Positions 10,072-30,828 of a stretch of DNA of 32,000 nucleotides are shown piece after piece; the first letter of the stretch is position 1; every line of letters starts with the position of its first letter. A program made the translations under genes and the position numbers. The DNA is taken from assembly GCA_964522485.1 (NCBI GenBank), contig CAZFUS010000008.1, forward strand, positions 15,042-47,041, read 5' to 3'. The notes beneath the pieces were generated by a model, which worked only from the letters and a program-made list of their open reading frames with translations, searched no databases and was not told the origin of the DNA. The stretch comes from an uncultured Enterobacteriaceae bacterium (lineage in GTDB: Bacteria; Pseudomonadota; Gammaproteobacteria; Methylohalomonadales; Methylohalomonadaceae).

Positions 10072-10107
10072 GTCAATCGCCCCTAAGACATACCACCTAT
10101 GGAGTAA
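10072..10107 (-). promoter_or_regulatory. Composite upstream element facing the gcvT-like/tmd/etf operon
   Basis: On the - strand it reads TTACTCCATAGGTGGTAT-GTCTTA-GGGGCGATTGAC. The 18-nt box is a perfect inverted copy of 10163-10180. The 12-mer matches TGTGCAATTGAC at 9 of 12 positions and contains a TTGAC -35-like core about 120 nt upstream of the ATG at 9952. Confidence 0.55.
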
Positions 10108-10162
10108 ACTGATCAGCTGTTTATTTGCATGGCCTTCCGCTTACTTACTGAAAATTATGCAA

Positions 10163-10199
10163 TTACTCCATAGGTGGTATTACAGATGTGCAATTGACA
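10163..10199 (+). promoter_or_regulatory. Composite upstream element facing soxB/mgdA (18-nt box + 6 nt + TGTGCAATTGAC, with TTGACA as a -35 candidate)
   Basis: The sequence is TTACTCCATAGGTGGTAT-TACAGA-TGTGCAATTGAC(A). A possible -10 AATCAT lies 17 nt downstream of TTGACA. The element sits about 165 nt upstream of ATG 10361. The same 12-mer recurs exactly at 15682-15693 and, in reverse complement, at 30585-30596. Confidence 0.6.
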
Positions 10200-10360
10200 T
10201 ATAACCACCCTGCTTTAATCATGGTCCTGCTCTGGATTAGCAAAACAGATGACATTTAAACTAGGTCAACCAATCCCGTTGAGTCAGATTTATTGATTTT
10301 CAGAACAACAATAATAAATTACGACATTCCTGAAATTACATTTTCCGAGGGAGTCTCTGT

Positions 10361-11602: not shown

Positions 11603-11620
11603 ACAGCAGGAGTTTTCTGC

Positions 11621-11920
11621 ATGAAGATTATGCATTGCCCACTGAATGGTCCACGCAATATATCGGAATTTGCATCAGGCGGAGAAGTTACTCAGATGCC
11701 GGAACCATCTGAAACTGACGATCAGGCCTGGGCCGAGTACATATGGATGCACAATAACACTGCGGGAGTTGTAACTGAATGGTGGTGCCATGTACCCACC
11801 TCTTACTGGTTCCTTGCCGAACGCAACACGGTTACTGACGAGATTCTTCGCACTTATCCCGCCAATGAGAGATACAGGGAACGCATAACCTTCGCAGCGG
11901 GTCCGGAGAAGAAAAAATGA
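11621..11920 (+). CDS. soxD: Sarcosine oxidase delta-subunit family protein (MgdB-like)
   Basis: The 99-aa product starts MKIMHCPLNGPRNISEF..., which resembles the zinc-ribbon-like SoxD N-terminus. An AGGAG SD lies 8 nt upstream. Its stop overlaps the next start as ATGA. Confidence 0.85.
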   Translation: MKIMHCPLNGPRNISEFASGGEVTQMPEPSETDDQAWAEYIWMHNNTAGVVTEWWCHVPTSYWFLAERNTVTDEILRTYPANERYRERITFAAGPEKKK

Positions 11921-14865: not shown

Positions 14866-14869
14866 GCGC

Positions 14870-15583: not shown

Positions 15584-15671
15584 GGGTGACGTCCAGCCTG
15601 CGTGTGACAATATCAAGCCGATAAGTCACTGCAACACTAATATATTAAATATCCGGACTACCTCTTACGTG

Positions 15672-15694
15672 ATACTCATCATGTGCAATTGACC
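15672..15694 (+). promoter_or_regulatory. Truncated copy of the shared upstream element in front of the ABC transporter
   Basis: The sequence is ATACTCA-TCA-TGTGCAATTGAC(C). The 12-mer is exact and TTGACC is the -35 candidate. GATTAT lies 17 nt downstream as a -10 candidate. The element is about 175 nt upstream of ATG 15865. The central ATAGGnGGTAT part of the box is missing. Confidence 0.55.
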
Positions 15695-15864
15695 ACCACG
15701 AAGAGTCACACGATTATTCATTACATAATCATGGCTTTAGTTTAACGGTGGGAAGTGGTAGCGATCATGCCTGCCTGGACATCGTGATCATTTCCCTGAA
15801 AGTCACAGGGGTTTACATGGACGTACACAAAGCCGCCTGAAAATATCTTCACAGGAGGATGATC

Positions 15865-17133
15865 ATGGGCATTACTCGACGTGATTTGATTAAGGCAACG
15901 GCCTCAGGCGTTGTTTTAAGCGGTATCGGCTTACCTTTCTCGACTCTCAGGGCCGAGTCAAAAACGGTCAAGATCGGTTTTCTGGCACCGTTGACCGGCG
16001 AAGTCTCTGCATGGGGCTTGCCGGGTCTTTACGGCGCAGAAATCTGGGCCGAAAAGATCAACAAGACCGGTGGCATCAACGTTGGGGGCGAAAACTACAT
16101 GGTGGAGATCGTCTCCTTCGATAATGAATATGCTCCCGAAAAGGCGCTGCAGGGATATCGGCGTCTCGTGTCGGAGGACGACGTCAAGCTCATCATGATG
16201 CTCGGTGGCGATACCTGGCCGGCAGTACAGAGGTTCGCCAACCGTTCCAAGATGCTGACCTCGACGCTGTTGCCAAGCGATCTTTCTCCCGACACTCCCT
16301 ATCTGATTGCGCCCTGCGAGGTGCATCCCATCTATAATGTGACCGGTGTCGAATGGATGGCCGAACAATTCGGTGATCTCAAGAAAGTTGTCATCACTGC
16401 ACAGAACGATTCCCTCGGCCTGCCCTCGGTGGCAACCTACAAGGCCGCGTTCGAGGCCGCCGGTCTGGAAGTGGTCGGCCAGAACCTGTTCGATCCCGCC
16501 ACCACCGACTTCGCGGCAGTCACGGGATCACTGCTGGCCAACAACCCCGATGTCGTCTGCCTGGACACCTGCTACGCCGACTACGTCAACCTGCTGTGCG
16601 AACAGCTCTACCAAAAGCGGTTCAAGGGCAAGATCATTTCCTGCACGCTGGACACCTATCCGAAGATCATCGAGAAGACCAGCCAGGAATGGCTGGACGG
16701 CACGATCTTCCAGTTCCCGGATTTCGACGATCCGATGATGGAAAAGGACTTCATCAACTTCCCGAATCCTAAAGAGTTCCAGGAAGCCTATGACGCCCGG
16801 CATCCGGGCACCTGGACCGCTGTGTCCTGGGAATATGCTTCCATCATGGACCTGTGGAAGACCGCCGCCGAGGAGGCCGGCAGCGTCGAACCCATGGACG
16901 TGCTGGAACAGATGAAGGCCGGCGGCACGGCCCCGCATGCGTTCGGCGATGCCAAATGGTGGGGCGAGGAACTCTGGGGCATCAACAACGCCCTGGTGGG
17001 CAACTGGCCGGTGGTCGCACTGGATGGCGGCAAGGCCCGTATTCAGGCCTTCAAGAGCATCCCCGAATGGTGGGGCAAGCATGGCGACCTGCTGCTCAAG
17101 CACATGAAGGAGATGGACCTTCTGAGAACCTGA
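15865..17133 (+). CDS. ABC transporter periplasmic substrate-binding protein (Liv/HAAT, type I PBP) with a twin-arginine signal peptide
   Basis: The N-terminus MGITRRDLIKATASGVVLSGIGLPFSTLRA carries a Tat motif. VKIGFLAPLTGEVSAWGLPG... is typical of LivJ/K-like binding proteins. An AGGAGG SD lies 6 nt before ATG 15865. The ORF-track ATG 15859 directly abuts that SD. Confidence 0.85.
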   Translation: MGITRRDLIKATASGVVLSGIGLPFSTLRAESKTVKIGFLAPLTGEVSAWGLPGLYGAEIWAEKINKTGGINVGGENYMVEIVSFDNEYAPEKALQGYRRLVSEDDVKLIMMLGGDTWPAVQRFANRSKMLTSTLLPSDLSPDTPYLIAPCEVHPIYNVTGVEWMAEQFGDLKKVVITAQNDSLGLPSVATYKAAFEAAGLEVVGQNLFDPATTDFAAVTGSLLANNPDVVCLDTCYADYVNLLCEQLYQKRFKGKIISCTLDTYPKIIEKTSQEWLDGTIFQFPDFDDPMMEKDFINFPNPKEFQEAYDARHPGTWTAVSWEYASIMDLWKTAAEEAGSVEPMDVLEQMKAGGTAPHAFGDAKWWGEELWGINNALVGNWPVVALDGGKARIQAFKSIPEWWGKHGDLLLKHMKEMDLLRT

Positions 17134-17168
17134 CGCCAGCCACGTCTTTATCACTAATATGTGCTACG

Positions 17169-17197
17169 GGAGCCCGGACAACCTTTGTTCGGGCTCC
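17169..17197 (+). other. Intercistronic hairpin after the binding-protein gene
   Basis: GGAGCCCG (17169-17176) pairs with CGGGCTCC (17190-17197) around a 13-nt loop, with no T tract. This resembles the RNA-stabilising hairpins often found after ABC binding-protein cistrons. Confidence 0.4.
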
Positions 17198-17223
17198 TCA
17201 GCTCAAGTCTCAGGGGAACAGGA

Positions 17224-18093
17224 TTGGAACTTGTCATCCAGACTATTGTAAATGCAATAGTACAGAGTGGATTTTTTGCACTGACTGCTGTCGGTCTGGT
17301 TCTGATCTTCGGTGTGCTCGGCATTATCAATTTCGCCCACGGCGAGTTTTACATGGCCGGAGCTTTTACCGTCTGGTACCTGTACTCGATCCTGGGATGG
17401 CCGTTTCCGATCGCGGTCACATGCGCATTCCTGCTGGTCATGACGATCGGTATCGTCATGGAACGATTGCTGTTCCGGCCCATGCGTGACAATCCGCTCG
17501 GCGGCCTGATCATGTCGATCGGCGCCCTGTTCATACTCCAGGTCCTCGCGGTCAAGATCGGCGGTGTAGGCCTGATGAAACACGTGCCCGCCCCCTATCG
17601 CGGTACACTGAACATCTACGGCGATGTAGTAGTTGCAAATCAGAAGCTGGTGGCCCTTATCGTGGCGGCCGCACTGCTGTCATTCATCTGGTATTTCCTG
17701 ACCTACACGAGGCTTGGCTGGGCGCTGCGCGCAGTTGCCCAGGACCATGAGGCCGCTTCCTTGCAAGGCATCAGCATCAACAGGATTTCCATGATTGCCG
17801 TCGGTCTCGGCGCTGGCCTGGCCGGTGTCGCCGGCGGCCTGATAGCGCCGATGGCCCGCGTCGAACCCTACATGGGTCATCACGCCATAATCACTGCTTT
17901 CATCGTGACCATCGTCGGCGGACTCGGTAGCCTGAGCGGCGCCGTACTGGCCGCGATCCTGTATGCGTTCTTCCATACCTTTGTCACGACCTATTACGGC
18001 GGCACAATCGCAACCATGCTCGGTCTTTTGATCATGCTGCTTGTCCTGATCATCAAGCCAACCGGACTGATGGGTACACGGGTCAACGAGTAA
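17224..18093 (+). CDS. Branched-chain-amino-acid-type ABC transporter permease (LivH-like)
   Basis: The hydrophobic product begins ELVIQTIVNAIVQSGFFALTAVGLVLIFGVLG, matching the usual LivH N-terminus. I favour TTG 17224, which has AGGGGA 7 nt upstream. The ORF-track GTG 17161 would make the 17169-17197 hairpin coding. Confidence 0.8.
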   Translation: MELVIQTIVNAIVQSGFFALTAVGLVLIFGVLGIINFAHGEFYMAGAFTVWYLYSILGWPFPIAVTCAFLLVMTIGIVMERLLFRPMRDNPLGGLIMSIGALFILQVLAVKIGGVGLMKHVPAPYRGTLNIYGDVVVANQKLVALIVAAALLSFIWYFLTYTRLGWALRAVAQDHEAASLQGISINRISMIAVGLGAGLAGVAGGLIAPMARVEPYMGHHAIITAFIVTIVGGLGSLSGAVLAAILYAFFHTFVTTYYGGTIATMLGLLIMLLVLIIKPTGLMGTRVNE

Positions 18094-18098
18094 GAACA

Positions 18099-19085
18099 AT
18101 GAATACGCGTATCAAAACCATCATCGGCCTGTTCATACTGTTCGGGGTGCTGTCCGCGCTTCCGTTCGGACTCAAGCTCTGGCAGCAGGATTTCATGATC
18201 TTCCTGCTCATCAATATTCTCGTCGCCGTCAGCTACCGCCTGATGACCCTGACGGGGGAATGGTCGCTCATTCACGCGGTGCTCTGGGGCGCCGGCGGCT
18301 ACGGCAGCGCACTGCTTATGAAGGAATGGGGCTGGTCGTTCTGGATCGCCATGCCGGCCGCCGGTCTGATCACCGCCTCGATCGCCCTGATCCTGAGTTT
18401 TCCGCTGTTCCGCATGAAGGGATTCTTCTTTCTTATCGGATCATTCGCCATCGGCGAGGCCATCCGCCTGAGCTGGAACTATTTCCAGGTGCCGTTCGGC
18501 GGCCCCCGGGGACTGCAGTTGATCCCGTCGCCGGAACTCTGGATCCCGGGCGCCGGCATTATCGAGATATGGAATCCCGTGCATTATTACTTTATGACCC
18601 TGATCATTGTGTCGCTCTGCCTGTTGATACTGTACCGGCTGGAGCATTCCAGGATCGGCATGACGCTGAACGCCATTCATTGGCGTGATTCACTGGCGGA
18701 ATCCGTCGGCGTCAACACCTTCCGGTACAAGACGGTGGCATTCATGATTGCGTCATTTTTTGTCGGTATCGCCGGCAGTCTGTTCGCCCATTACCTGGGA
18801 TCGCTGAATCCGCATCAGTTCGAGGTCTCGGCCATGGTCTTCATCCTTGTCTGGGTAATCGTCGGCGGCACGAATACCTTTGCCGGGCCCATCATCGGCG
18901 TAACCGTGCTGTCCGTACTCAATGAATTCTTCCGTCAGGCCGAAGAATGGCGGCCGCTGATTTACGGCGTCATCCTGATCCTCAGCATACGTTTCATGCC
19001 GGATGGTATCGACAGCCTGCCGGGACGCATCCGACAGTATCTGGCCCGGCGGCGGGAAGGCAGCGGACAAGCAGTCAATGCCTGA
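18099..19085 (+). CDS. Branched-chain-amino-acid-type ABC transporter permease (LivM-like)
   Basis: The 328-aa polytopic membrane protein starts 5 nt after the LivH-like stop. Confidence 0.85.
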
Positions 19086-19112
19086 AGATTCCCGGCCTGT
19101 GGCTGAATCTTC
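19083..19112 (+). other. Intercistronic hairpin between the permease and ATPase genes
   Basis: TGAAGATTC (19083-19091) pairs with GAATCTTCA (19104-19112), giving a 9-bp stem and a 12-nt loop. The hairpin overlaps the LivM-like stop codon. Confidence 0.35.
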
Positions 19113-19139
19113 AGGCCTCTTCCGCATGGAGTAAGGAAC

Positions 19140-19892
19140 GTGACAGTACTGGAGATCCATAACGTAACCAAGCAATTCGGCGGTCTGGTTGCGCTGAACG
19201 ATGTATCCTTTCGGGTCGAAGAGGGTGAGATTCGCGGCCTGATCGGCCCGAACGGCGCCGGCAAGAGCACGATGTTCAAGAACATCGCCGGCTTTTACCG
19301 TCCCACCCATGGAAAAATACTATTCCAAAGTCAGGATATCAGCGGCTGCAAGCCCCATAGCATTGCCCGCATGGGTGTCGTGCGCACCTTTCAGGAAACC
19401 ACCCTGTTCAAGGAAATGACCGTTTTCGAGAACGTGCTGGTGGGATGCCATCTGCAGGCCGAGAGCGGGCTATTCGCCGCCATCTTCAATACCGATCGTG
19501 AGAGGCAGCGCGCCGCCGAGGAGAAATCGCTCGAAGTGCTGGAATTCCTGGGTCTGTCAGAGCGCAAGAACGACCTGGCTTCGAGTCTGCCACTGGGTTC
19601 TCAACGCGCCCTGGCGGTGGCTATCGCCCTCGCCTCCTCGCCCAGGCTCCTGCTGCTCGACGAACCGTTCGCCGGCATGAGCCAGGAGGAAAGACACATC
19701 CTGATGGATCTGCTCCGGAAAATACAACAATCCGGCGTGACCATGATCCTGGTGGAGCACGACATGTCGGCCGTCATGGGCGTGTGCGGCTTCCTGACCG
19801 TGCTGAACTTTGGCAGTCTGCTGGCCGAGGGCACGCCGGACGAAGTCCGCAAGAACGAAAGAGTCATCGAAGCATACCTGGGTTCCACTTGA
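19140..19892 (+). CDS. ABC transporter ATP-binding protein (LivG-like)
   Basis: The product has Walker [10 protein letters not shown], the signature LPLGSQRAL, and Walker B LLLLDEP. It uses a GTG start with AAGGAA upstream. Confidence 0.9.
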
Positions 19893-19893
19893 C

Positions 19894-20601
19894 ATGCCAT
19901 TAGAGCTGCAAAACATCGAGGTCTATTTCGACCAGGCCGCCGCCCTGCGCGGGGTTTCCATGAAAGTTGCCGAAGGCAAGATCACCACACTGATCGGCGC
20001 CAACGGCGCCGGTAAAAGCACGACACTCAGGACCATCTCCGGTCTCGAGAAACCGACTTCGGGGGCAATTCATTTCGAGGGCAAACGCATAGACAAACTG
20101 CCCCCGGACAGGATACTCAAGATGGGCATAGCCCACGTACCGGAAGGACGGCGGGTATTTCCCGACCTCAGCGTCAACGAAAACCTGAGGCTGGGCGCCT
20201 TCACCCGCAAGGACACTGCGGAGATTGCCCGGGATCTGGAATCGGTCTTTGAGCATTTCCCCCGCCTGCGCGAACGAAAAAACCAGAAAGCCAATACGCT
20301 GAGCGGCGGCGAACAGCAGATGGTGGCCATCGGCCGGGCGCTGATGTCCCGGCCCAGGCTGCTATTGCTAGACGAGCCGTCGCTCGGCCTTGCGCCGCTA
20401 ATCGTGAAGGAAATCGCCAGTATCCTGCTGGAAATCAACAGGCAGGGTGTAACCATCATTCTGGTTGAGCAGAATGCGGAACTGGCACTCGGAGTCGCGC
20501 AGTATGGCTATGTGCTGGAAAGAGGCGATATCACCCTCGAAGGAGAAGCCAACACCCTGATGAAGAATGAGCATGTAAAAAGGGCATATCTCGGTATATA
20601 A
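19894..20601 (+). CDS. ABC transporter ATP-binding protein (LivF-like)
   Basis: The product starts at ATG 19894 (MPLELQNIEVYF...), 1 nt after the LivG-like stop. It has Walker A GANGAGKST, the signature LSGGEQQM, and Walker B LLLLDEP. Confidence 0.9.
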   Translation: MPLELQNIEVYFDQAAALRGVSMKVAEGKITTLIGANGAGKSTTLRTISGLEKPTSGAIHFEGKRIDKLPPDRILKMGIAHVPEGRRVFPDLSVNENLRLGAFTRKDTAEIARDLESVFEHFPRLRERKNQKANTLSGGEQQMVAIGRALMSRPRLLLLDEPSLGLAPLIVKEIASILLEINRQGVTIILVEQNAELALGVAQYGYVLERGDITLEGEANTLMKNEHVKRAYLGI

Positions 20602-20649
20602 GAATCAGATAATTTGAATTCATCATAATAAATTTCAAGGATAAGTGAT

Positions 20650-21411
20650 TTGACTGATTCGTTTAAGGAACTGGATATTGAGAGTCAGGAGCTATTATGG
20701 GTAGACTGCTGCGAATGCGCCTGTAGTGAAATTCAAGCGAAACATTACAAAGCTGCCATGGATTATTGGCAGGAATCCCTGAATCTGGCTGAATCCTTTT
20801 CCGATAGCGATCCCCGCCATGCAGCCAGTCTTAATAATATGGCGGTCGTATTTCGCCTGCGGAACAATCTGGAACTCGCTGAAAAATATTATCAGCTGGC
20901 AAAACAGCAATGGGCTGCCGCCGCCGACTGGGTCAAATGTATGGAAATCAGGAGCCGGGCTTCCAGTTCGGTTTTTCATTTAAGAATGGAGAGGCGCCAC
21001 AGGGAAAAATACAACAAGCCGATTATAGAAGATTATCTGAATAAACTGGATGCAGGTTACGCTGCCACGCTCAACAATCATGCCGAACTTCTACAGAAAC
21101 AAGACAAAAATCAACAGGCCAGAGCACAATATGCTCTTGCATTAGATAAAAGAATCAAATCAAACCTGACAGCTGATACGGGAGCAAAACGCATTGCAAG
21201 CAATCTTCACGCCAGTCTAAATGACAATACTCACATTTCGAATCGCTCGCAGAACATTAATAGATTAATTGAGCCCTCATCGCTCAACTTCATCGAAAAG
21301 GCCAGGCGCGAAAACTGGCTTATCGATAAACCGCCGATATTTACTGATGAGGGGCGTTTGATGGCAGCCCTGCTATTTACTTACATAATTGAGATGGAGT
21401 CATCACATTAA
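20650..21411 (+). CDS. Tetratricopeptide-repeat (TPR)-like hypothetical protein
   Basis: The 253-aa product has a TTG start with AAGGA 8 nt upstream. Two TPR-like units are visible: HAASLNNMAVVFRLRNNLELAEKYYQLA and YAATLNNHAELLQKQDKNQQARAQYALAL. The gene is AT-rich. Confidence 0.5.
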   Translation: MTDSFKELDIESQELLWVDCCECACSEIQAKHYKAAMDYWQESLNLAESFSDSDPRHAASLNNMAVVFRLRNNLELAEKYYQLAKQQWAAAADWVKCMEIRSRASSSVFHLRMERRHREKYNKPIIEDYLNKLDAGYAATLNNHAELLQKQDKNQQARAQYALALDKRIKSNLTADTGAKRIASNLHASLNDNTHISNRSQNINRLIEPSSLNFIEKARRENWLIDKPPIFTDEGRLMAALLFTYIIEMESSH

Positions 21412-21521
21412 TCAGTCAAACTGATTATCCAGAATAGCCAACACTGAGATTTTTACAGATATTGTAATGAGTTAACGAGGGCAAGGAAGATGGTATTCGG
21501 CATTGACACTGCCAGCAGACG

Positions 21522-22316
21522 ATGAATTCTTATAGCTACATAAAAGGCAGCAGCCCCCTGATCATAAGCATACCGCATAGCGGTACATATGTACCGGATG
21601 AAATTCTTCAACGCATGACAGCAGAAGCAAGAGTACTACCGGATACTGATTGGCATGTCGACAAGCTGTATGATTTTGCCGAGTCCATGGACGTTTCTAT
21701 AATAAAGGGAAACTACTCTAGGTATGTAATTGATCTGAACAGACCTCCTGATGATGCATCTTTATATCCCGGTATGGATACAACCGGTCTCTGTCCGGAA
21801 ACCCTTTTCAGTGGCAATCCCATCTACCGGGCCGGACAAACACCCGGATCAAAAGATGTCGCCAGACGAATCGAAAAAATATGGGCCCCCTATCACGAAT
21901 GTCTCAGTAAAATTATTCACGACAAAGTCGTCGATTATGGTTATGTGCTGCTGTACGAAGCACACTCCATCAAATCGGTGGTTCCGCGTCTTTTTGAAGG
22001 CAGATTGCCCGACCTGAATCTCGGCACGGCTGATGGCGCCAGTGTAGACTATGACCTGCAACAGAAACTGTACCAGATATGCAGCAGCAATGCCGATAAC
22101 TATACCAGCACGATTGACGGACGCTTCAAGGGGGGATATATAACCCGCTACTATGGACAACCAGACAGCGGCGTGCACGCCGTCCAGCTTGAATTGACTC
22201 AATGCAGCTATATGAATGAATGCTATCCGTACAATTACATGCCGGAAAATGCCATGAAAATACGTGGTATTCTGATCCGGCTGATACGCTGTATGCTGGA
22301 ATGGCGGCCGTCCTGA
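21522..22316 (+). CDS. N-formylglutamate amidohydrolase (HutG/FGase) family protein
   Basis: The 264-aa product has N-terminal SPLIISIPHSGTYVPDE and downstream motifs DTDWHVDKLY, SRYVIDLNR, LYEAHS and VQLELTQ, all characteristic of the FGase family. Confidence 0.8.
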   Translation: MNSYSYIKGSSPLIISIPHSGTYVPDEILQRMTAEARVLPDTDWHVDKLYDFAESMDVSIIKGNYSRYVIDLNRPPDDASLYPGMDTTGLCPETLFSGNPIYRAGQTPGSKDVARRIEKIWAPYHECLSKIIHDKVVDYGYVLLYEAHSIKSVVPRLFEGRLPDLNLGTADGASVDYDLQQKLYQICSSNADNYTSTIDGRFKGGYITRYYGQPDSGVHAVQLELTQCSYMNECYPYNYMPENAMKIRGILIRLIRCMLEWRPS

Positions 22317-22572: not shown

Positions 22573-22770
22573 ATGAAATCTACTAATCGACAGGAGAAGA
22601 ATCGCAACACAGCTTCCGTAAGGCTGACAGATGACGATGTCTATATGATCATGATGTTACATCAGAATCAGAATATGAGCAGCAGAGACATCGCCAGGAA
22701 ATTCGGCATCAGTACCGCCCGGGTACGTGATATCGTGGCCAGACGGGTCGGCGGCAGCTGTTGCGGCTGA
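22573..22770 (+). CDS. Small putative helix-turn-helix DNA-binding protein (65 aa)
   Basis: The segment MSSRDIARKFGISTARVRDIVARR looks like a classical HTH of the resolvase or sigma-70-region-4 type. The stop lies only 6 nt from the convergent GFA stop, so the coding status is uncertain. Confidence 0.4.
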   Translation: MKSTNRQEKNRNTASVRLTDDDVYMIMMLHQNQNMSSRDIARKFGISTARVRDIVARRVGGSCCG

Positions 22771-22776
22771 CAGAAA

Positions 22777-23190
22777 TCAGTCGTTCCCGATATCGGTGCT
22801 GTCCAGGCCTTGCTGCTTTTTCGGCAAATCATCCATTAACTTGTAATAATCACCCGCAAAGTTCACATGGATATGGCACCGTGTCTGCAGCCCCGTCGGT
22901 TCCGTGAGCGAACCCGCAGCTATTCTCAACAAATCGGAGTCCAGCCGGTCCCAGAACAGACTGCTGCCGCATTCGCGGCAGAAGCCGCGTCTGGCCTGAG
23001 AAGATGAGCTATACCAGTTCAGAGCCCCTCGGCCGTCATCGATCTCAACGGCGTCACGACGGGCTGCCGTGTAAGCGGCATAATGACCATGGAATCGTCG
23101 GCATTGCCGACAATGACAGTTGACAATATCACGCAGGACTGTATTGACAGTGTATGTAACTGCTCCGCACAGGCACTGCCCCCTCTGCAT
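22777..23190 (-). CDS. GFA (glutathione-dependent formaldehyde-activating enzyme / CENP-V) family zinc protein
   Basis: The 137-aa product starts at ATG 23190 (MQRGQCLCGAVTY...). Its Cys pattern CxC...CHCxxCRR...CxxCG is typical of the GFA domain. The ORF-track start at 23226 adds 12 residues with no support. Confidence 0.8.
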   Translation of the reverse strand: MQRGQCLCGAVTYTVNTVLRDIVNCHCRQCRRFHGHYAAYTAARRDAVEIDDGRGALNWYSSSSQARRGFCRECGSSLFWDRLDSDLLRIAAGSLTEPTGLQTRCHIHVNFAGDYYKLMDDLPKKQQGLDSTDIGND

Positions 23191-23262
23191 GATTACTGAC
23201 TGATTCCTCTCAAACCCGGCCACCATGCATGCGTATCGGCAACGAATACAGGCACAGCAGGA

Positions 23263-23886
23263 TCACGATGGCTCAGGCTCGGCAACTGCCAGTGTCCAGT
23301 CAGGCTTGAATGCAACCACCTGTACGCCTGGCGGCATAAAAGGATTAAAGAGCTGATTATGCCAGTAGGTTGCCTGGTATAGATAACTGTCTGCGTCCAG
23401 ATTGATCACTTCACACGGTAGTGAAAAATACTGGCGCGTCTGATTGAATTCCAGCGTGCAAGTGCCCTGCTTTTCAAGATAATTAACCAGCGGTTCATCC
23501 GGCCCGAATAATGCAGTAAGCTGATCGGTAAATTCTCTCTTGTCCTGGTAATATTCAGCGGCGAGAAATTCCAGTCCGCTGTCGTAGCGCTTTTTCGGGT
23601 CCTGGGTGCGCCGGACCATGTGCCTGAACTCCGGCACTGTTGAACAGTGTTCATGCTTGTTGATCAGAACAATAATCTGAATCAACGTGCTCTTATCAAC
23701 AACAACGCCTGGGCACATGGACTCTGAAGGCTTGCCTGCATTCCTGCGCACGGCATTCTGTCTGGCCTTGCATTGCCATTTCAGAAAATGCTCACGTAAA
23801 GCCAATGCGGCCGTTTGATGGCGCACAACATTCTGGTGATTACCGTCAGTCACGTTTGTACTGCTGCCCTCTGTCGCCGGCATCAT
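23263..23886 (-). CDS. Hypothetical protein (207 aa) co-oriented with the NMG operon
   Basis: The long ORF starts ATGATG 10 nt after the upstream stop. I recognise no family. A notable segment is LREHFLKWQCKARQNAVRRNAGKPSESMCPGVVV. Confidence 0.5.
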   Translation of the reverse strand: MMPATEGSSTNVTDGNHQNVVRHQTAALALREHFLKWQCKARQNAVRRNAGKPSESMCPGVVVDKSTLIQIIVLINKHEHCSTVPEFRHMVRRTQDPKKRYDSGLEFLAAEYYQDKREFTDQLTALFGPDEPLVNYLEKQGTCTLEFNQTRQYFSLPCEVINLDADSYLYQATYWHNQLFNPFMPPGVQVVAFKPDWTLAVAEPEPS

Positions 23887-23896
23887 GTGAAATTAC

Positions 23897-24286
23897 TCAA
23901 AATTTCGCATAGGCCTTTTTCAGATCCACCAGCGGATGATCCGGCGACATCTGGAACTTCACCAGCAGCTCACGGGCAATCATGTCACGGTCCTGCTGAT
24001 TGTCAGGCAATTTAATGTCCCCCGGCACCTGCACCCAGCCGTTGATATTCCGGTCGAAAACCGCGGGTTTGCCTTCCTCATAACCCATGTGAACGTCCTC
24101 CAACCAGTTCAGGTCCTGCCAGTCCATGATTTCCATGTATTTCTCGAGAAACGGGGTGACACGGTTCATATCCGGCACCAGATTCACATCATAGCGATAG
24201 CCAATATGCTGCCCGATTAATTTTTCACGTTCTGTATCGACACCTGTACTTGTAACGTAGTAATCAATGTCTTTTTCCTTACTCAT
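23897..24286 (-). CDS. Hypothetical acidic protein (129 aa) immediately downstream of mgsC
   Basis: The ORF starts 31 nt after the mgsC stop with an AGAGAG-type SD. It has no Cys and no motif that I recognise. Confidence 0.5.
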   Translation of the reverse strand: MSKEKDIDYYVTSTGVDTEREKLIGQHIGYRYDVNLVPDMNRVTPFLEKYMEIMDWQDLNWLEDVHMGYEEGKPAVFDRNINGWVQVPGDIKLPDNQQDRDMIARELLVKFQMSPDHPLVDLKKAYAKF

Positions 24287-24317
24287 GGCGATCTCTCTAT
24301 CAATAAACAGATATTGA

Positions 24318-25706
24318 TTAATAGCGGGTCATATCGGGGCGACCGACCGTGTGCTGTGAACCCGCCATCGGCACCTGTGCCATGGAAGACGCCTCCATAG
24401 TCAAGGCTGCCAAATCTTCCGGTTCCAGTGAATGCACGTTGGTTTTTGCACAAGCCCTGGCAAACAGCTGACACTCAATAGCAAGCGTATGCAGGAAATT
24501 ATAGACACGCTCCGCAGCCTCATCCGGATGCAGACGTTTGCGCAGCTGTGGATCCTGGGTGGTAACGCCGACCGGGCAGCGACCGGTATGGCAATGGTAA
24601 CAATAGCCTGCCTCGACCCCCATTTCCTTCGGAAAATCGGCTTCCGGAATATCCTTGTTGCAGTTCAGGGCAATGAGTGACGCATGGCCGATTGCTACCG
24701 CATCGGCACCCAGGGCAAGCGCCTTGGCCAGATCAGAGCCGTTACGAATGCCGCCCGCATAAATCAGGGAGATTTCCCCCGTTTTACCTACGTCATCAAG
24801 CGCCTTCCTGGCCTGACGTATGGCGGCAATACCAGGTACACCGGTATCTTCGGTGGCAAGGTGGGGGCCGGCACCGGTACCACCCTCCATACCGTCAATA
24901 TAAATACAGTCAGGATCACACTTGGCCGCCATACGGACGTCATCATAAACACGGGCCGCACCAAGTTTCAGCTGGATCGGGATCTCCCAATTGGTAGCTT
25001 CGCGTATTTCCTGAACCTTGAGAGCAAGATCGTCCGGACCGAGCCAGTCGGGATGGCGAGCCGGCGAACGCTGATCGATGCCTGCCGGCAGCGAACGCAT
25101 TTCAGCAACCTGATCGGTAACTTTCTGTCCCATGAGATGCCCGCCCATACCGACCTTGCAGCCCTGACCGATGAAGAACTCGATCGCATCAGCCAGGCGC
25201 GCATGATGCGGATTGAAGCCATAACGTGACTGGATCAGCTGATAAAACCATTTCTCAGAATAACGACGTTCATCCGGTATCATGCCTCCTTCACCGGAAC
25301 AGGTTGCCGTACCAGCCATCGTCGCACCACGGGCCAGGGCACACTTCGCCTCATAGCTCAGGGCGCCGAAGCTCATGCCGGTAATATACACCGGTATATC
25401 CAGCTCCAGCGGACGCTTGGCGCGCGGACCGAGGATCGTTTTTGTCTCACATTTTTCTCTATAACCCTCGATAACAAAGCGTGTCAAAGTACCAGGCAGA
25501 AAAGTCAGATCATCAAAATGCGGGATTTTCTTGAACAGGGAAAAGCCGCGCATCCGATACCGGCCAAGTTCAGCCTTGACGTGTATATCATCGATAACAC
25601 GCGGCTGGAAAATAAAACTGGAACCGAGAACATGACGGTTGCGCTCGGGTTTGGTTTCCGGCACTATTTCAGGTGCTGGTTCTGTTGCTGGATTTTGCTG
25701 TGACAT
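24318..25706 (-). CDS. mgsC: FMN-binding glutamate-synthase-family protein (GlxD / GltB FMN domain), N-methylglutamate synthase subunit C-like
   Basis: The product is about 462 aa. It has a GltS FMN-domain signature (MSFGALSYEAKCALARGA..., IDGMEGGTGAGP..., ISLIYAGGIRNGSDLAKALALGADAV). It follows the GATase and GXGXG genes. I prefer ATG 25706 over the ORF-track TTG 25715. Confidence 0.85.
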   Translation of the reverse strand: MSQQNPATEPAPEIVPETKPERNRHVLGSSFIFQPRVIDDIHVKAELGRYRMRGFSLFKKIPHFDDLTFLPGTLTRFVIEGYREKCETKTILGPRAKRPLELDIPVYITGMSFGALSYEAKCALARGATMAGTATCSGEGGMIPDERRYSEKWFYQLIQSRYGFNPHHARLADAIEFFIGQGCKVGMGGHLMGQKVTDQVAEMRSLPAGIDQRSPARHPDWLGPDDLALKVQEIREATNWEIPIQLKLGAARVYDDVRMAAKCDPDCIYIDGMEGGTGAGPHLATEDTGVPGIAAIRQARKALDDVGKTGEISLIYAGGIRNGSDLAKALALGADAVAIGHASLIALNCNKDIPEADFPKEMGVEAGYCYHCHTGRCPVGVTTQDPQLRKRLHPDEAAERVYNFLHTLAIECQLFARACAKTNVHSLEPEDLAALTMEASSMAQVPMAGSQHTVGRPDMTRY

Positions 25707-25763
25707 TTTATTCAAACCTCTCGTAAGACCTTTCTGGGCAACTCATGCGGGTACGCATACCGG

Positions 25764-26606
25764 TTAAAGAACCAGTTTCTTTTCGGTAGGCTCAAGATTG
25801 TCGTAATTCCAGAGTTTCTTGCCTGAAACAATCTTGCGCACATTTGCCACACCATTGGGCGCTTCCAGTCCGTATATTGAAAGCTTTTTCGTAAGCCACT
25901 GGATATCGATATCGGTCATCTCGCTTTCAACTGCATCAACACCCAGGCTTTCATACTTGCCGGCTATATAAATGGTGCCGTCATACATTGAATCGCCAAG
26001 GTTGGAACCTGCATCACCCAGAATGACCATCCTGCCGCGTTGCATCATAAAACCCGAATTCATACCGGTCCGGCCACCGATAATGATGGTGCCACCCTTC
26101 ATGTCAATTCCGGTACGGGAGCCGACGTCACCCTTGCATACCAGATCACCGCCCCGTATAGCCGCGCCAAAGGTTGAACCGGCATTTTTCTCTACCACTA
26201 CAGTGCCGGCCATCATGTTCTCGGCACATGACCAGCCAACACGTCCCTTGATGCGCACGTTCGGCCCATCGATCAATCCGCAGCCGAAATAGCCAAGGCT
26301 GCCGTCGAAAGTAAGATTCAGCCGGTTAAGAATGCAGACACCCATTGAATGTTTGGCCCCTGGATTCCTGATCGTTATGCTGCCGTAACCTTCCTTCATA
26401 AGCTCACGAAGCTTGATATTCACGTCCTTATTGCTCATGTCGGCAGCGTCGAACTCAGTTTCCTTGTTAAAATCGACTTCAAAAGCACCAGGGTAAGTAA
26501 AATTCTCCTCGGCTGCCGGTTTGAAGAATATCTGCTGTGTGCGTCCTGCCAGCTGCTCATCGTGCATTCCCATTGCATGGGAATCTCTGGATTCTAGCTG
26601 TGCCAT
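25764..26606 (-). CDS. mgsB: GXGXG-motif protein (GlxC / glutamate synthase alpha C-terminal domain-like), N-methylglutamate synthase subunit B-like
   Basis: The 280-aa product has repeated Gly-rich beta-helix motifs (GYFGCGLIDGPNVRIKGRVGWSCAENMMAGTVVV..., GDVGSRTGIDMKGGTIIIGG..., ILGDAGSNLGDSMYDGTIYIAG). It overlaps the mgsA stop by 13 nt. Confidence 0.85.
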   Translation of the reverse strand: MAQLESRDSHAMGMHDEQLAGRTQQIFFKPAAEENFTYPGAFEVDFNKETEFDAADMSNKDVNIKLRELMKEGYGSITIRNPGAKHSMGVCILNRLNLTFDGSLGYFGCGLIDGPNVRIKGRVGWSCAENMMAGTVVVEKNAGSTFGAAIRGGDLVCKGDVGSRTGIDMKGGTIIIGGRTGMNSGFMMQRGRMVILGDAGSNLGDSMYDGTIYIAGKYESLGVDAVESEMTDIDIQWLTKKLSIYGLEAPNGVANVRKIVSGKKLWNYDNLEPTEKKLVL

Positions 26607-27547
26607 ACTTTCACCGCTCCATCATAAGGATCATAGGTATCAATCTCATGGGGAAAGATACTTCTTATGGCAACCTCTTCGGATGCCAAGGCAATGAAGT
26701 CATCACTCTCATAGAGAACCATAGGTTTTGCAGCCATAGTGTCTTTCGCCATGCCCAGAGAATTGCTGGTCGCAACAAGATAGGTAAAAACGCCATCCAG
26801 ATCCGTTACCGAGTCATGCATCGCTTCTTCCAGCGTTTTTCCCTGATCGAGTTTGTCTGCAATGTAGACGGCTATCAGTTCGGAGTCGCAGTTGGAAGCA
26901 AAGCGATGTCCTTTACGCTCGAGGGCCCGGCGCTTGGTCCAGTAATTCGTCAACTGCCCATTGTGCACCACGGAAATATCACTGTACGGATATGCCCAGT
27001 AAGGATGGGCCGAACGGATATCAACATCAGATTCCGTGGCCATACGGGTATGCCCCATTGCATGCGTGCCCTGGAAGTCGCCCAGATCATATCCATCACT
27101 GACGGTCTTGGCATCACCGAGGTCCTTGATTAATTCAAGTGCACGTCCCATGGAGAGAATTTCCACTCCCTCCAGATCCTCGAGATAGTCGGCGAGCTTT
27201 CCGAGATCACCGTCATATTCAATAGTATACCTAAAGGCATATTCTTTAGGTTGATCAATGTTTACTATTTTACCGTCCAGCTCTTTTATACGTGTCTCAA
27301 CGTCTTCCTTACGCTGTATGATCAGATCATGAATGCCCCATGCGCCCTTTTTGCTATGCGTCGACTCAACATCCGCACCCTCGGCTACTTTCAGGCGTAT
27401 GATATACTGCTTCGGATTTCCCTGACCATAAAGTGCATAGCCGGTTGAGTCTGGCCCTCTATGTTTTAATGCCTGTAGCATTAAGGCCATTTCCTTACCA
27501 ATACCAGCACTTTTGCCTTTATGAATAAGTCCTGCTATTCCACACAT
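26594..27547 (-). CDS. mgsA: Class II (Ntn) glutamine amidotransferase-family protein (GlxB-like), N-methylglutamate synthase subunit A-like
   Basis: The 317-aa product begins MCGIAG, with the catalytic Cys directly after Met. GHTRMATES and VVHNGQLTNY motifs are present. A GGAGGA SD lies upstream. Confidence 0.85.
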   Translation of the reverse strand: MCGIAGLIHKGKSAGIGKEMALMLQALKHRGPDSTGYALYGQGNPKQYIIRLKVAEGADVESTHSKKGAWGIHDLIIQRKEDVETRIKELDGKIVNIDQPKEYAFRYTIEYDGDLGKLADYLEDLEGVEILSMGRALELIKDLGDAKTVSDGYDLGDFQGTHAMGHTRMATESDVDIRSAHPYWAYPYSDISVVHNGQLTNYWTKRRALERKGHRFASNCDSELIAVYIADKLDQGKTLEEAMHDSVTDLDGVFTYLVATSNSLGMAKDTMAAKPMVLYESDDFIALASEEVAIRSIFPHEIDTYDPYDGAVKVWHS

Positions 27548-27564
27548 GTATTAATTCCTCCAGT

Positions 27565-29034: not shown

Positions 29035-29106
29035 GTTTATTCCCCTAGACTTGATAGTTTCGGTGTTGATTTACAATTCATGATTTCAGAGGGTTCAATA
29101 TATATC

Positions 29107-30584: not shown

Positions 30585-30620
30585 GTCAATTGCACACAAG
30601 ATATACCCCCTATTGAGTAT
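30585..30620 (-). promoter_or_regulatory. Composite upstream element facing the SoxB-like/gmaS/mgs operon
   Basis: On the - strand it reads ATACTCAATAGGGGGTAT-ATCTTG-TGTGCAATTGAC. Box, spacer length (6 nt) and 12-mer match the element at 10163-10198 (28 of 35 positions identical). It lies about 135 nt upstream of ATG 30450. Confidence 0.6.
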
Positions 30621-30828
30621 TTCTGCGGGGTCTTGTCTGGCTCTATTCTGTTATAGACAAGAAGTACAATTTTACCCGGTTGAACGGTCCGGAAATCAAC
30701 GGGATGCGAAAACAGGATTTTATAAAGAGCGGCATCCCCCGTCGCCTGATGCATAACCGAATATATTCCATGACGCCGGACAGCCGTCCCCGGCTGATGT
30801 ACCCATGCTAGAAAGAGGAAATGGCAGA

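What the first reader, a model, noticed from the sequence alone, without database searches (positions are those of the whole stretch)
10072..10199. Divergent promoter region with a perfect 18-bp inverted repeat, each arm followed by a TTGAC-containing 12-mer
ATACCACCTATGGAGTAA (10090-10107) and its exact reverse complement (10163-10180) are separated by 55 bp. Read toward its own downstream operon, each arm is followed after exactly 6 nt by nGnGCnATTGAC. Toward soxB/mgdA this is TGTGCAATTGAC at 10187-10198. Toward the gcvT-like/tmd/etf operon it is GGGGCGATTGAC (reverse complement of 10072-10083). The architecture looks like an activator site abutting a -35 (TTGAC), mirrored for two divergent operons. 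The same composite element recurs at 30585-30620 and in truncated form at 15672-15694. An exact 12-mer present three times in 32 kb, always in an intergenic region and always oriented toward the downstream operon, is very unlikely by chance.
Basis: seen in the sequence. Interest (0 to 1): 0.7.

Follow-up and report, generated by a model that had tools for sequence, protein, structure and literature searches.

The report
NarL-type promoter module for methylamine genes
The repeated sequence is a conserved 35-bp promoter module, a NarL-type regulator binding site fixed upstream of a sigma-70 -35 box, that heads all four methylamine-breakdown operons in this window and in related marine bacteria, and so points to a candidate for the still-unidentified regulator of methylamine oxidation genes.

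Summary

The functional unit is not the inverted repeat. It is a directional 35-bp module, TACyCmnTwGGkGGTA-N13-ATTGAC, present four times in the window. Each copy points at an operon start: soxBDAG/mgd-like, gcvT-like/tmd/dgcB/etf, FAD-oxidoreductase/gmaS/mgsABC, and an ABC transporter. The copy at 15659-15693 is full length but degenerate, not truncated.

The 16-bp core has the NarL/NarP '7-2-7' layout of two inverted TACYYMT heptamers. ATTGAC supplies a -35 box, and a conserved nAnnAT -10 follows 17-18 bp later.

I collected 30 sites from about 15 related genomes or contigs. All lie upstream of methylamine-pathway genes, and complete 2-Mb chromosomes hold only one strict match each. It is therefore a regulon signal, not a REP-like repeat.

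In seven lineages a soluble NarX/Q-like kinase, a NarL-like response regulator (recognition helix identical to E. coli NarL) and a PAS-GGDEF protein are encoded next to the sites. A blind test confirmed this link.

The regulator is not encoded in this window and was not found for its lineage. Activation and the signal are inferred.

The parts
10164..10198 (+). Module A: 7-2-7 core TACTCCA-TA-GGTGGTA (10164-10179), 13-nt linker, ATTGAC (10193-10198). It points at the soxB/mgdA-like gene.
   Evidence: 44 bits; orthologous sites in L001, L005, L007, L009, L019, L020, L035
10194..10222 (+). Predicted sigma-70 promoter of the soxBDAG-like operon: -35 TTGACA 10194-10199, 17-nt spacer, -10 AATCAT 10217-10222. 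The inferred start is near 10229, which puts the core centre (10171.5) at about -57.5.
   Evidence: 10 of 12 matches; -35 and -10 columns invariant in 5 genomes; transcription start not mapped
10072..10106 (-). Module B: the same core (reverse complement of 10091-10106), linker, ATTGAC (reverse complement of 10072-10077). It points at the gcvT-like gene.
   Evidence: 49 bits; orthologous sites in L001/L014, L019, L025, L027, L034, L035, L037
10047..10076 (-). Predicted sigma-70 promoter of the gcvT-like/tmd/etf operon: -35 TTGACG (10076-10071), 18-nt spacer, -10 CATGAT (10052-10047).
   Evidence: GTACATkATTG conserved with M. lacus
15659..15693 (+). Module D: degenerate full-length core TACCTCT-TA-CGTGATA, linker, ATTGAC. 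It points at the ABC-transporter substrate-binding protein gene. The promoter has -35 TTGACC 15689-15694 and -10 GATTAT 15712-15717.
   Evidence: D9; 32-34 bits; orthologous position in L012/L029/L031 and L037 upstream of an SBP 51% identical
30585..30619 (-). Module C: core TACTCAA-TA-GGGGGTA, linker, ATTGAC. It points at the 447-aa FAD oxidoreductase that opens the gmaS/mgsABC operon. The -35 is TTGACG (30589-30584); no clear -10 is present.
   Evidence: I1; 43-46 bits; orthologous sites L008, L017
236..9973 (-). Operon served by module B: gcvT-like aminomethyltransferase, DmmA-like reductase, trimethylamine/dimethylamine-dehydrogenase-like OYE flavoenzyme (734 aa), DgcB-like Fe-S oxidoreductase, LRV/HEAT-repeat protein, etfB, etfA.
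   Evidence: same order in L001 and L037
10361..15583 (+). Operon served by module A: soxB-D-A-G-like heterotetrameric oxidase/dehydrogenase. It is probably N-methylglutamate dehydrogenase mgdABCD, given the neighbouring gmaS and mgsABC.
15859..22316 (+). Genes downstream of module D: Liv/Urt-type ABC transporter (SBP, 2 permeases, 2 ATPases), a TPR protein and a hutG-like N-formylglutamate deformylase. Operon extent is not established.
22777..30450 (-). Genes downstream of module C: FAD oxidoreductase, gmaS-like type III glutamine synthetase, mgsA/B/C-like (GATase, GXGXG, FMN glutamate-synthase domain), 129-aa and 207-aa unknown proteins, and a GFA-family protein.
   Evidence: same order in L002, L003, L017, L022

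Best explanation
Each copy is a complete, directional promoter module for a methylamine-catabolic operon. A dimer of a phosphorylated NarL-family (GerE/LuxR-type HTH) response regulator binds the 16-bp core. The core consists of two inverted TACYYMT-like heptamers separated by 2 bp, a '7-2-7' site, centred about 57 bp upstream of the inferred transcription start. A linker of invariant length (13 nt) places this dimer next to a near-consensus -35 box (ATTGAC). A sub-optimal -10 (nAnnAT, never T at the first position) lies 17-18 bp downstream. From that position the bound regulator most likely helps RNA polymerase and switches on four units together: the tmd/etf operon, the mgd (soxBDAG-like) operon, the gmaS-mgsABC operon and an ABC transporter.

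The 'perfect inverted repeat' is simply two such modules placed back to back for two divergent operons. In related genomes the regulator is encoded with a cytoplasmic NarX/NarQ-like kinase that lacks the periplasmic nitrate sensor. The signal is therefore probably intracellular, either methylamine or a pathway metabolite, rather than nitrate.

Shown here: the motif, its directionality, its fixed geometry, its conservation, its restriction to methylamine genes, and its linkage to the kinase/regulator pair in relatives. Inferred: which protein binds in this genome, that it activates, and what the signal is.
For: Motif and statistics: four modules at 34-49 bits against 4 bits for the next best position. 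The exact repeats exceed all shuffles.

Phylogenetic footprint: in five genomes with SoxB 76-87% identical to the window's, only the core, one G, ATTGAC and AAnnAT are invariant between the site and the start codon. The gcvT side behaves the same way.

Promoter: -35/-10 pairs are called at A, B and D. 27 of 30 sites have a -10-like hexamer at 17-18 bp.

Specificity:
- The strict-pattern scan of 185,579 species genomes gave 11 loci. Nine are in methylamine-gene contexts and two are chance.
- The metagenome scan gave 14 loci, 10 of them in such contexts.
- All sites point at gcvT-like, soxB, tmd, FAD oxidoreductase, SBP, hutG-like, folE2-like or cupin genes.

NarL class: the core has the layout and sequence of NarL 7-2-7 sites. 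The published heptamer is TACYYMT (PMC4886647) and the engineered consensus site is TACCCCTAAAGGGGTA (PMC4549865). Examples found here are TACCTCTTAAGGGGTA and TACACCTAAAGGTGTA.

Candidate regulator:
- HK, RR and PAS/GGDEF genes lie next to sites in L007/L013, L009, L012/L029/L031/L032, L019, L020, L021 and L025.
- The RR scores 284.5 bits on the NCBIfam NarL model (cutoff 250) and is 54% identical to E. coli NarL. The TVKVHVK recognition-helix segment and the LLDLNM acceptor-Asp motif are both retained.
- The kinase matches only positions 315-562 of the 565-position NarQ model.

Blind test: a kinase homolog chosen only by sequence (P0297) was fetched. It lies between the gcvT-tmd-dgcB-LRV-etfBA operon and the ABC transporter, with three modules exactly upstream of gcvT-like, tmd and the SBP gene.
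Against: - No NarL-like regulator or kinase gene lies in the 32-kb window or within 10 kb of the M. lacus sites.
- No M. lacus protein is among the 120 best homologs of the regulator or of the kinase. The cognate protein of the window's own lineage is therefore unidentified.
- The inferred centre, about -57.5, is not one of the positions (-44.5, -66.5, -77.5) shown to work for a single NarL site at the E. coli ogt promoter (PMC9314961).
- The -35 box is already near consensus, which is unusual for an activator-dependent promoter.
- Conserved linker bases (C20, G25, G27, A30 of the module) are not explained by NarL heptamers.
- Module C has no recognisable -10.
- There are no transcription start, expression or binding data.
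Confidence: 0.72

Rival explanations
1. The sites are targets of the canonical nitrate/nitrite-responsive NarX/NarQ-NarL/NarP system. On this reading, methylamine catabolism is tied to nitrate availability (respiration or nitrogen status) rather than to methylamines.
For: The core is indistinguishable from E. coli-type NarL 7-2-7 sites (PMC4549865, PMC4886647). The linked regulators pass the NCBIfam NarL cutoff. No dedicated regulator is linked in the window or in M. lacus.
Against: In seven lineages the regulator next to the sites is paired with a kinase that lacks the whole N-terminal periplasmic/transmembrane/HAMP part of NarX/NarQ. That pair is embedded among the methylamine genes. No nitrate-respiration gene was seen downstream of any site.
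Confidence: 0.12
2. The 16-bp core is the operator of a repressor. Candidates are a GntR-type regulator as proposed for Ruegeria TMA genes, or the small HTH-like ORF at 22573-22770. The strong -35 box would then drive transcription once the repressor leaves.
For: The -35 box is near consensus. A 65-aa ORF with sub-threshold HTH matches is the only HTH-like ORF in the window. PMC13199381 cites a putative GntR repressor for TMA genes in Ruegeria.
Against: The core lies wholly upstream of the -35 box, at roughly -65 to -50, where a repressor would not block polymerase. Single modules (C, D) work without a partner site for looping, and the distance between paired modules is not conserved. The small ORF has a poor ribosome-binding site, no homolog in any fetched locus and a recognition helix unlike NarL's. 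The -10 is consistently sub-optimal, as in activated promoters.
Confidence: 0.08
3. The 35-bp module is bound by two factors. A NarL-type dimer binds the core, and a second protein (or a special sigma factor) reads the conserved linker plus ATTGAC. ATTGAC would then not be an ordinary sigma-70 -35 box.
For: The linker length is invariant and some linker bases are conserved (C20, G25, G27, A30). These bases are neither heptamer nor canonical -35. ATTGAC is invariant in 30 of 30 sites, more than expected for a -35 hexamer, although the search patterns required it.
Against: A -10-like hexamer at 17-18 bp in 27 of 30 sites fits ordinary sigma-70 geometry. No second regulator gene is consistently linked, and the PAS-GGDEF protein has no DNA-binding domain. 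No sigma-54 signature is present.
Confidence: 0.06
4. The repeats are a dispersed REP-like or mobile-element remnant, or a DNA/RNA hairpin (for example a bidirectional terminator), with no role in regulation.
For: It is a perfect 18-bp inverted repeat in an intergenic region.
Against: The window holds only four copies, all at operon starts and all pointing at the gene. Complete chromosomes have one strict match each. The two arms are not complementary in M. lacus or L035, and the arm distance varies. The repeat lies between the two inferred divergent starts and so is not transcribed. No terminator-like site was called and there was no Rfam hit.
Confidence: 0.02

Closest known systems
NarL/NarP '7-2-7' binding sites of Escherichia coli (heptamer TACYYMT; e.g. 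at napF, yeaR, ogt, frdA)
   Same: Both have two inverted heptamers beginning with TAC, separated by 2 bp, giving a 16-bp site. Some sites here differ from the engineered consensus TACCCCTAAAGGGGTA at only 2 positions. The linked regulators share 54% identity and the TVKVHVK recognition-helix segment with NarL. A single site upstream of a sigma-70 promoter can suffice for activation (PMC9314961).
   Different: The target genes are methylamine catabolism, not anaerobic respiration. The linked kinase has no periplasmic nitrate-sensing, transmembrane or HAMP region. The site sits at about -57.5, at a fixed 13-nt distance from an invariant ATTGAC, with partly conserved linker bases. I found no such architecture reported for NarL promoters in the papers read here.
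SecR, atypical NarL/FixJ-family regulator of the serine cycle in Aminobacter and other alphaproteobacterial methylotrophs (PMC13199381, 2026)
   Same: It is a NarL/FixJ-family HTH dimer that binds an inverted repeat with a TAC-containing half-site (CCYACCCG...CGGGTRGG). It activates genes needed for growth on methylamines.
   Different: SecR lacks the phospho-acceptor motif and a kinase, and its half-sites are spaced differently. It controls serine-cycle genes and its own gene, and it does not bind the mgsA promoter. That paper states that the system sensing methylamines and inducing the oxidation genes is unidentified. The module here sits on those oxidation genes, in Gammaproteobacteria, and is linked to a typical Asp-containing regulator with a kinase.
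Simple activator-dependent sigma-70 promoters with one upstream dimer site (Class I type, e.g. CRP at -61.5)
   Same: A single dyad site lies upstream of the -35 box, on a promoter with an imperfect core element. The same module is reused across a regulon and mirrored in divergent regions.
   Different: The -35 box is near consensus and it is the -10 that is weak. The position is about -57.5. The contact with polymerase (alpha-CTD or sigma region 4) is unknown.
GbdR/SouR (AraC-family) control of dgcAB and soxBDAG in Pseudomonas aeruginosa (from my own knowledge, not checked here)
   Same: It regulates homologous enzyme genes (DgcA/DgcB-like, SoxBDAG-like, EtfAB) in response to methylated amines.
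   Different: It belongs to a different regulator family, and I do not expect its sites to be 7-2-7 sites (from memory; not checked here). No AraC-family gene was found in the window or in the related loci.

Membership tests
NarL/NarP 7-2-7 operator | Two heptamers matching TACYYMT in inverted orientation, separated by exactly 2 bp | tested here: met
   In 29 unique sites T1, A2, C3 and T15, A16 are invariant. Position 4 is mostly T or C, position 5 mostly C, position 6 mostly C or A, and positions 10-14 are mostly G-rich (G/T at 12). Window core: TACTCCA-TA-GGTGGTA. L019 has the perfect palindrome TACACCT-AA-AGGTGTA. Published consensus from PMC4886647 and PMC4549865.
NarL/NarP 7-2-7 operator | Bound by a NarL-family response regulator (REC + GerE HTH) with the NarL recognition helix | not testable with these tools
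   Binding was not assayed. Indirect support: regulators encoded next to sites in seven lineages have REC + GerE domains, score 284.5 bits on the NarL model (cutoff 250), and carry the TVKVHVK segment identical to 1A04. No such gene lies in the window.
Nitrate/nitrite NarX-NarL or NarQ-NarP system | Membrane kinase with a periplasmic nitrate-binding domain, transmembrane helices and HAMP | tested here: not met
   The linked kinases (385-414 aa) match NarQ model positions 315-562 of 565 and NarX positions 363-590 of 598 only. Pfam finds only HisKA_3 and HATPase_c. This was tested in relatives, not in the window's genome.
Nitrate/nitrite NarX-NarL or NarQ-NarP system | Regulon of nitrate/nitrite respiration genes | tested here: not met
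   All 30 sites precede methylamine-pathway, transporter, folate or unknown genes. None precedes nar, nap, nir, nrf, frd or fdn genes.
Sigma-70 promoter | -35 and -10 hexamers 17 +/- 1 bp apart | tested here: met
   TTGACA-17-AATCAT, TTGACG-18-CATGAT and TTGACC-17-GATTAT. Both elements are invariant in a 5-genome alignment. 27 of 30 sites comply. Module C does not.
Sigma-70 promoter | Transcription starts about 7 nt after the -10 | not testable with these tools
   No transcript data are available.
REP-like / dispersed intergenic repeat | Many copies per genome, unrelated to the function of neighbouring genes | tested here: not met
   Complete chromosomes of 2.05, 2.14 and 2.41 Mb have one strict match each. 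All non-chance matches are at methylamine genes.
SecR regulon (PMC13199381) | Motif CCYACCCG / CGGGTRGG; regulator without phospho-acceptor or kinase; serine-cycle targets | tested here: not met
   The half-site spacing and sequence differ. The linked regulator keeps the LLDLNM acceptor motif and has a kinase. The targets are oxidation genes, including the gmaS-mgs operon, whose promoter SecR does not bind.
Sigma-54 promoter with upstream enhancer site | TGGCAC-N5-TTGCW between the site and the gene | tested here: not met
   18 matches with up to 2 mismatches against 19.7 expected. None lies in the right orientation downstream of a module.

The most novel reading that the evidence does not exclude
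A cytoplasmic NarX/NarQ-like kinase (GAF-like input only), a NarL-like regulator and a PAS-GGDEF(-EAL) protein together form the methylamine-sensing system that switches on the primary methylamine oxidation genes (tmd/etf, gmaS-mgsABC, mgdABCD, transporter) in marine and halophilic Gammaproteobacteria. A 2026 study describes this sensor as still unidentified. The system would act through a new NarL promoter architecture: a 7-2-7 site at about -57.5, locked by a 13-nt, partly conserved linker to an invariant ATTGAC.
Probability: 0.4. Interest if true: 0.72.

Novelty: new variant of a known kind. Interest (0 to 1): 0.6.

Why it matters
Methylamines (TMA, DMA, MMA) are major marine carbon and nitrogen compounds. 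How bacteria sense them and induce the oxidation genes is largely unknown. PMC13199381 (2026) states that the sensor for the methylamine oxidation operons is unidentified.

This finding offers three things:
- A precise and testable cis-element, with four copies in this window and 30 across relatives.
- A regulon definition: TMA/DMA-dehydrogenase-like enzyme with ETF, the N-methylglutamate pathway, an ABC transporter, and in relatives folE2, hutG-like, cupin and secreted unknown proteins.
- A concrete candidate sensor/regulator pair in uncultured marine Gammaproteobacteria.

It also shows a nitrate-type regulator family apparently re-used for a different nutrient with its DNA specificity nearly unchanged. 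The motif can serve to annotate methylamine regulons and their uncharacterised members in metagenomes.

Tried and rejected
- Sigma-54 reading. By my count the GG and GC dinucleotides within the module are 2 bp too far apart. A TGGCAC-N5-TTGCW scan gave no more than chance.
- Riboswitch or RNA element in the leaders. There were no Rfam hits at gathering thresholds, and leaders are not conserved between genomes.
- Hairpin or terminator reading of the inverted repeat. The arms are not complementary in relatives and lie outside the inferred transcripts.
- A second NarL heptamer in the linker. Inspection of the consensus on both strands found none.
- FNR/CRP-type reading of TTGAC. The second half-site is absent.
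- Regulator inside the window. NCBIfam and Pfam scans of 27 ORFs found none. The only HTH-like ORF (65 aa, 22573-22770) is sub-threshold and has no homolog in any fetched locus.
- Finding the window's own contig. Exact look-ups of the SoxB-like protein and of its 100%-identical database entry failed.
- Finding the regulator of the Methylohalomonas/window lineage. It is not within 10 kb and not among the 120 best homologs of RR2 or of the L025 kinase. ORFs beside sites in L008, L015 and L017 are GFA, PP2C or unknown proteins, not regulators.
- The closest coding relative, L022 (Woeseia sp. MAG), has no motif at all. The module is therefore not tied to the coding cluster itself.
- L016, L018, L028, L030 and L033 were taken as chance matches. 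L023 is unresolved.
Full report
**1. Observation**

ATACCACCTATGGAGTAA lies at 10090-10107, and its exact reverse complement lies at 10163-10180. With up to 3 mismatches allowed, only one further copy appears in the window, at 30603-30620. The chance expectation is 0.01.

TGTGCAATTGAC occurs exactly three times: 10187-10198 (+), 15682-15693 (+) and 30585-30596 (-). The expected count is 0.02, and no shuffle reached three. With 2 mismatches allowed the 12-mer is not enriched (5 found, 3.65 expected). It is therefore the exact copies and their context that carry the signal.

The repeat finder reports three pairings as one family. These are A/C (38 nt, 79%), the mirrored pair A/B (36 nt, 81%), and A/D (35 nt, 71%, in register).

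**2. Gene context**

The window is a methylamine-utilisation island.

| Strand and range | Genes |
|---|---|
| Minus, 9973 to 236 | gcvT-like aminomethyltransferase, DmmA-like reductase, 734-aa trimethylamine/dimethylamine-dehydrogenase-like OYE flavoenzyme, DgcB-like Fe-S oxidoreductase, LRV/HEAT-repeat protein, etfB, etfA |
| Plus, 10361 to 15583 | soxB-D-A-G-like genes |
| Plus, 15859 to 22316 | Liv/Urt-type ABC transporter, TPR protein, hutG-like deformylase |
| Minus, 30450 to 22777 | FAD oxidoreductase, gmaS-like type III glutamine synthetase, mgsABC-like genes, two unknown proteins, GFA-family protein |
| Plus, 30805 | folE2 |

Each of the four modules lies 100-170 bp upstream of the first gene of one of these four units, and each points toward that gene. 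No regulator gene was found in the window.

**3. The unit is a directional 35-bp module**

In relatives the same composite recurs. It consists of TAC-N11-TA, then 13 nt, then ATTGAC. I collected 30 sites, 29 of them unique in sequence, from the window and about 15 other genomes or contigs. The consensus is TACtcnntagGnggTAnnnctnangngcnATTGAC.

A PWM built from the sites splits the window cleanly. Four positions score 34-49 bits and the next best scores 4 bits. The best score among 200 shuffled windows was 20 bits.

A scan with the 16-bp core alone found no good core that lacks ATTGAC exactly 13 nt downstream. The only exceptions were reverse-strand readings of the same near-palindromic cores.

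The perfect inverted repeat in the window is two modules placed back to back. In M. lacus the two cores differ from each other (TACTCAATAGGTGGTA and TACCCCGTAGGTGGTA). The gap between the two cores is 77 bp in M. lacus, 57 bp in the window and 33 bp in L035. Neither arm complementarity nor arm distance is conserved. The modules therefore act separately.

**4. It is a promoter**

I aligned the soxB upstream regions of five genomes whose SoxB is 76-87% identical to the window's. Between the site and the ribosome-binding site, the only invariant columns are the core, one linker G, ATTGAC, and AA..AT located 17-18 bp after TTGACn. The gcvT side shows the same pattern, with GTACATkATTG conserved.

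The consensus promoter scan calls three promoters:
- TTGACA-17-AATCAT (10194-10222, +)
- TTGACG-18-CATGAT (10076-10047, -)
- TTGACC-17-GATTAT (15689-15717, +)

Module C has no clear -10, although the orthologous sites in L008 and L017 do. Overall 27 of 30 sites have an nAnnAT-type hexamer at 17-18 bp, and its first base is never T.

With a start about 7 nt after the -10, the core centre (10171.5) sits near -57.5. For promoters with an 18-nt spacer it sits near -58.5. No start has been mapped. There is no sigma-54 signature, no Rfam element and no terminator in the divergent region.

**5. It is regulon-specific, not dispersed**

One strict pattern (TACYCNNTNGNNGGTA-N8-G-N3-RATTGAC) was run over one genome from each of 185,579 species. 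It matched 11 loci.
- Eight are Gammaproteobacteria (M. lacus plus MAGs). They lie upstream of soxB-like, gcvT-like, tmd-like or FAD-oxidoreductase genes.
- One (L012, labelled Chloroflexi) lies upstream of an SBP that is 51% identical to the window's. This contig is identical in site and gene order to several marine contigs, so it is probably misbinned.
- Two (L016, L018) look like chance.

Three complete chromosomes of 2.05-2.41 Mb carry one strict match each.

The same pattern run over JGI metagenomes matched 14 loci, and 10 of them are in the same gene contexts.

**6. Which protein**

The core has the layout of NarL/NarP '7-2-7' sites. These are two inverted TACYYMT heptamers separated by 2 bp, bound by a dimer of the GerE-type output domain (PMC4886647; PMC4549865). 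The engineered consensus site is TACCCCTAAAGGGGTA. Sites found here include TACCTCTTAAGGGGTA and the perfect palindrome TACACCTAAAGGTGTA.

In several lineages, three genes lie directly beside module-bearing soxB, gcvT-like, tmd or SBP genes. They encode a HisKA_3 kinase, a REC+GerE response regulator and a PAS-GGDEF(-EAL) protein. The lineages are L007/L013, L009, L012/L029/L031/L032, L019, L020, L021 and L025.

The regulator (RR2 of L007) has these properties:
- It scores 284.5 bits on the NCBIfam NarL equivalog (cutoff 250).
- It aligns to E. coli NarL (1A04) at E = 9e-64 with 54% identity.
- It keeps the TVKVHVK segment of the recognition helix and the LLDLNM acceptor-Asp motif.

From memory (Maris et al. 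2002), Lys188, Val189 and Lys192 in that helix make the base contacts. This was not checked here.

The kinases are 385-414 aa long. They match only the C-terminal cytoplasmic part of NarQ/NarX, which is model positions 315-562 of 565 for NarQ. They therefore lack the periplasmic nitrate sensor, the transmembrane helices and HAMP. Homologs of this short form are common in uncultured Gammaproteobacteria.

Blind test. A kinase homolog chosen by sequence alone (P0297, 56% identical to the L025 kinase) was fetched. It lies between an etfA-etfB-LRV-dgcB-tmd-gcvT operon and the ABC transporter. Three modules sit exactly upstream of gcvT-like, tmd and the SBP gene.

**7. Limits**

The window and the 21 kb around the M. 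lacus sites encode no such kinase or regulator. No M. lacus protein appears among the best 120 homologs of the regulator or of the kinase. The window's own contig could not be retrieved. The cognate regulator of this lineage is therefore inferred, not identified.

The closest coding relative is a Woeseia sp. MAG whose SoxB falls in the same 90% cluster. It carries the genes as one co-directional block with no module. The module therefore travels with the host's regulatory system, not with the enzymes.

The position of about -57.5 differs from the positions at which a single NarL site activates the ogt promoter: -44.5, -66.5 and -77.5 (PMC9314961). The invariant linker length and the conserved linker bases are unexplained.

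**8. Mechanism proposed**

A cytoplasmic signal, methylamine or a pathway intermediate, activates the soluble kinase. The phosphorylated NarL-like regulator then dimerises on the 7-2-7 core. From about -57 it helps sigma-70 polymerase at promoters that have a good -35 box but a weak -10. This turns on uptake, the TMA/DMA-dehydrogenase-like enzyme with ETF, and the N-methylglutamate pathway together.

| Claim | Probability |
|---|---|
| The module is a transcription-factor site plus promoter | about 0.9 |
| The factor is a NarL-family response regulator | about 0.75 |
| It activates | about 0.7 |
| The signal is methylamine-related rather than nitrate | about 0.6 |

The rivals are canonical nitrate control, a repressor operator, a two-factor composite, and a meaningless repeat. 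They are weighed in the Rival explanations section.

**9. Comparison and novelty**

The site is a member of the NarL 7-2-7 class by sequence and layout. The system is not the nitrate Nar system, because the kinase input and the regulon differ.

The nearest methylamine-related regulator is SecR (PMC13199381). It is an atypical, kinase-less NarL/FixJ protein of Alphaproteobacteria with a different motif, and it controls the serine cycle. It does not bind the mgsA promoter. That paper states that the sensor inducing the methylamine oxidation genes is unidentified.

Literature searches found no paper linking NarL-type systems to the primary methylamine oxidation genes (tmd, gmaS, mgs, mgd); the only hit pairing NarL with methylamines was the SecR study. 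I rate this a new variant of a known kind, of moderate to good interest. It offers a precise cis-element, a regulon and a candidate sensor for an acknowledged gap. All of it still needs experiment.

Noticed in passing
window 22573-22770 (+): A 65-aa ORF (MKSTNRQEKNRNTASVRLTDDDVYMIMMLHQNQNMSSRDIARKFGISTARVRDIVARRVGGSCCG) with many sub-threshold HTH matches (best E = 7e-5). It is the only HTH-like ORF in the window. It has a poor ribosome-binding site and no homolog in any fetched locus.
   Followed up: partly
window 23897-24286 (-) and 23263-23886 (-): Two proteins (129 aa and 207 aa) have no Pfam or NCBIfam match. They are nevertheless conserved directly after the mgsC-like gene in L002, L003 (129-aa protein, followed by a 145-aa ORF), L007, L017 (129-aa protein only, at the contig end) and L022. 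They look like uncharacterised components associated with the N-methylglutamate pathway.
   Followed up: partly
window 2010-3515 (-): A 501-aa LRV/HEAT-repeat protein lies between the DgcB-like Fe-S oxidoreductase gene and etfB. Proteins in the same position occur in L001 (481 aa), L029 and L037 (455 aa). Its role in the TMA/DMA-dehydrogenase/ETF operon is unknown.
   Followed up: no
L022 (Woeseia sp. MAG GCA_040902105.1), whole locus: Its SoxB falls in the same 90% cluster as the window's. The genes form one co-directional block (FAD oxidoreductase-gmaS-mgsABC-129-207-soxBDAG-gcvT) with GC-rich intergenic DNA and no module. This suggests the coding cluster was transferred without its promoters.
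   Followed up: partly
L007 2273-2307, L010 5952-5986, L020 19190-19224: Module variants precede an EutQ-like cupin and/or a roughly 485-aa signal-peptide protein with no family match. That protein is also encoded after soxG in L005. These are possible new regulon members of unknown function.
   Followed up: partly
L021 6248-6282 and 9280-9314: In a more distant lineage, weaker module variants precede hutG-like (FGase) and folE2-like genes. The window has both genes (21522-22316 and 30805-31644), but no module points at either of them.
   Followed up: partly
L007 6789-8951, L009, L012, L019, L020, L021, L037: A PAS-GGDEF(-EAL) gene always follows the response-regulator gene. This hints at a c-di-GMP link to methylamine sensing.
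   Followed up: no
L012 (CAJWJL010000060.1, labelled Chloroflexi MAG): Its site and gene order are identical to those of marine contigs L029, L031, L032 and L036, and its proteins resemble gammaproteobacterial ones. The contig is probably misbinned.
   Followed up: partly
window 31686-31880 (+): A TatA/E-like small ORF ([38 protein letters not shown]...) lies after folE2.
   Followed up: no
window 11652-11681 and 30743-30772: A 30-nt inverted repeat (77% complementary) has one arm inside the soxD-like gene and the other upstream of folE2 (I4). It is probably chance.
   Followed up: no
L023 8680-8714: A strict pattern match on a 12-kb metagenome contig with no homolog of any window protein. It is either a chance match or an unknown regulon member.
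   Followed up: no
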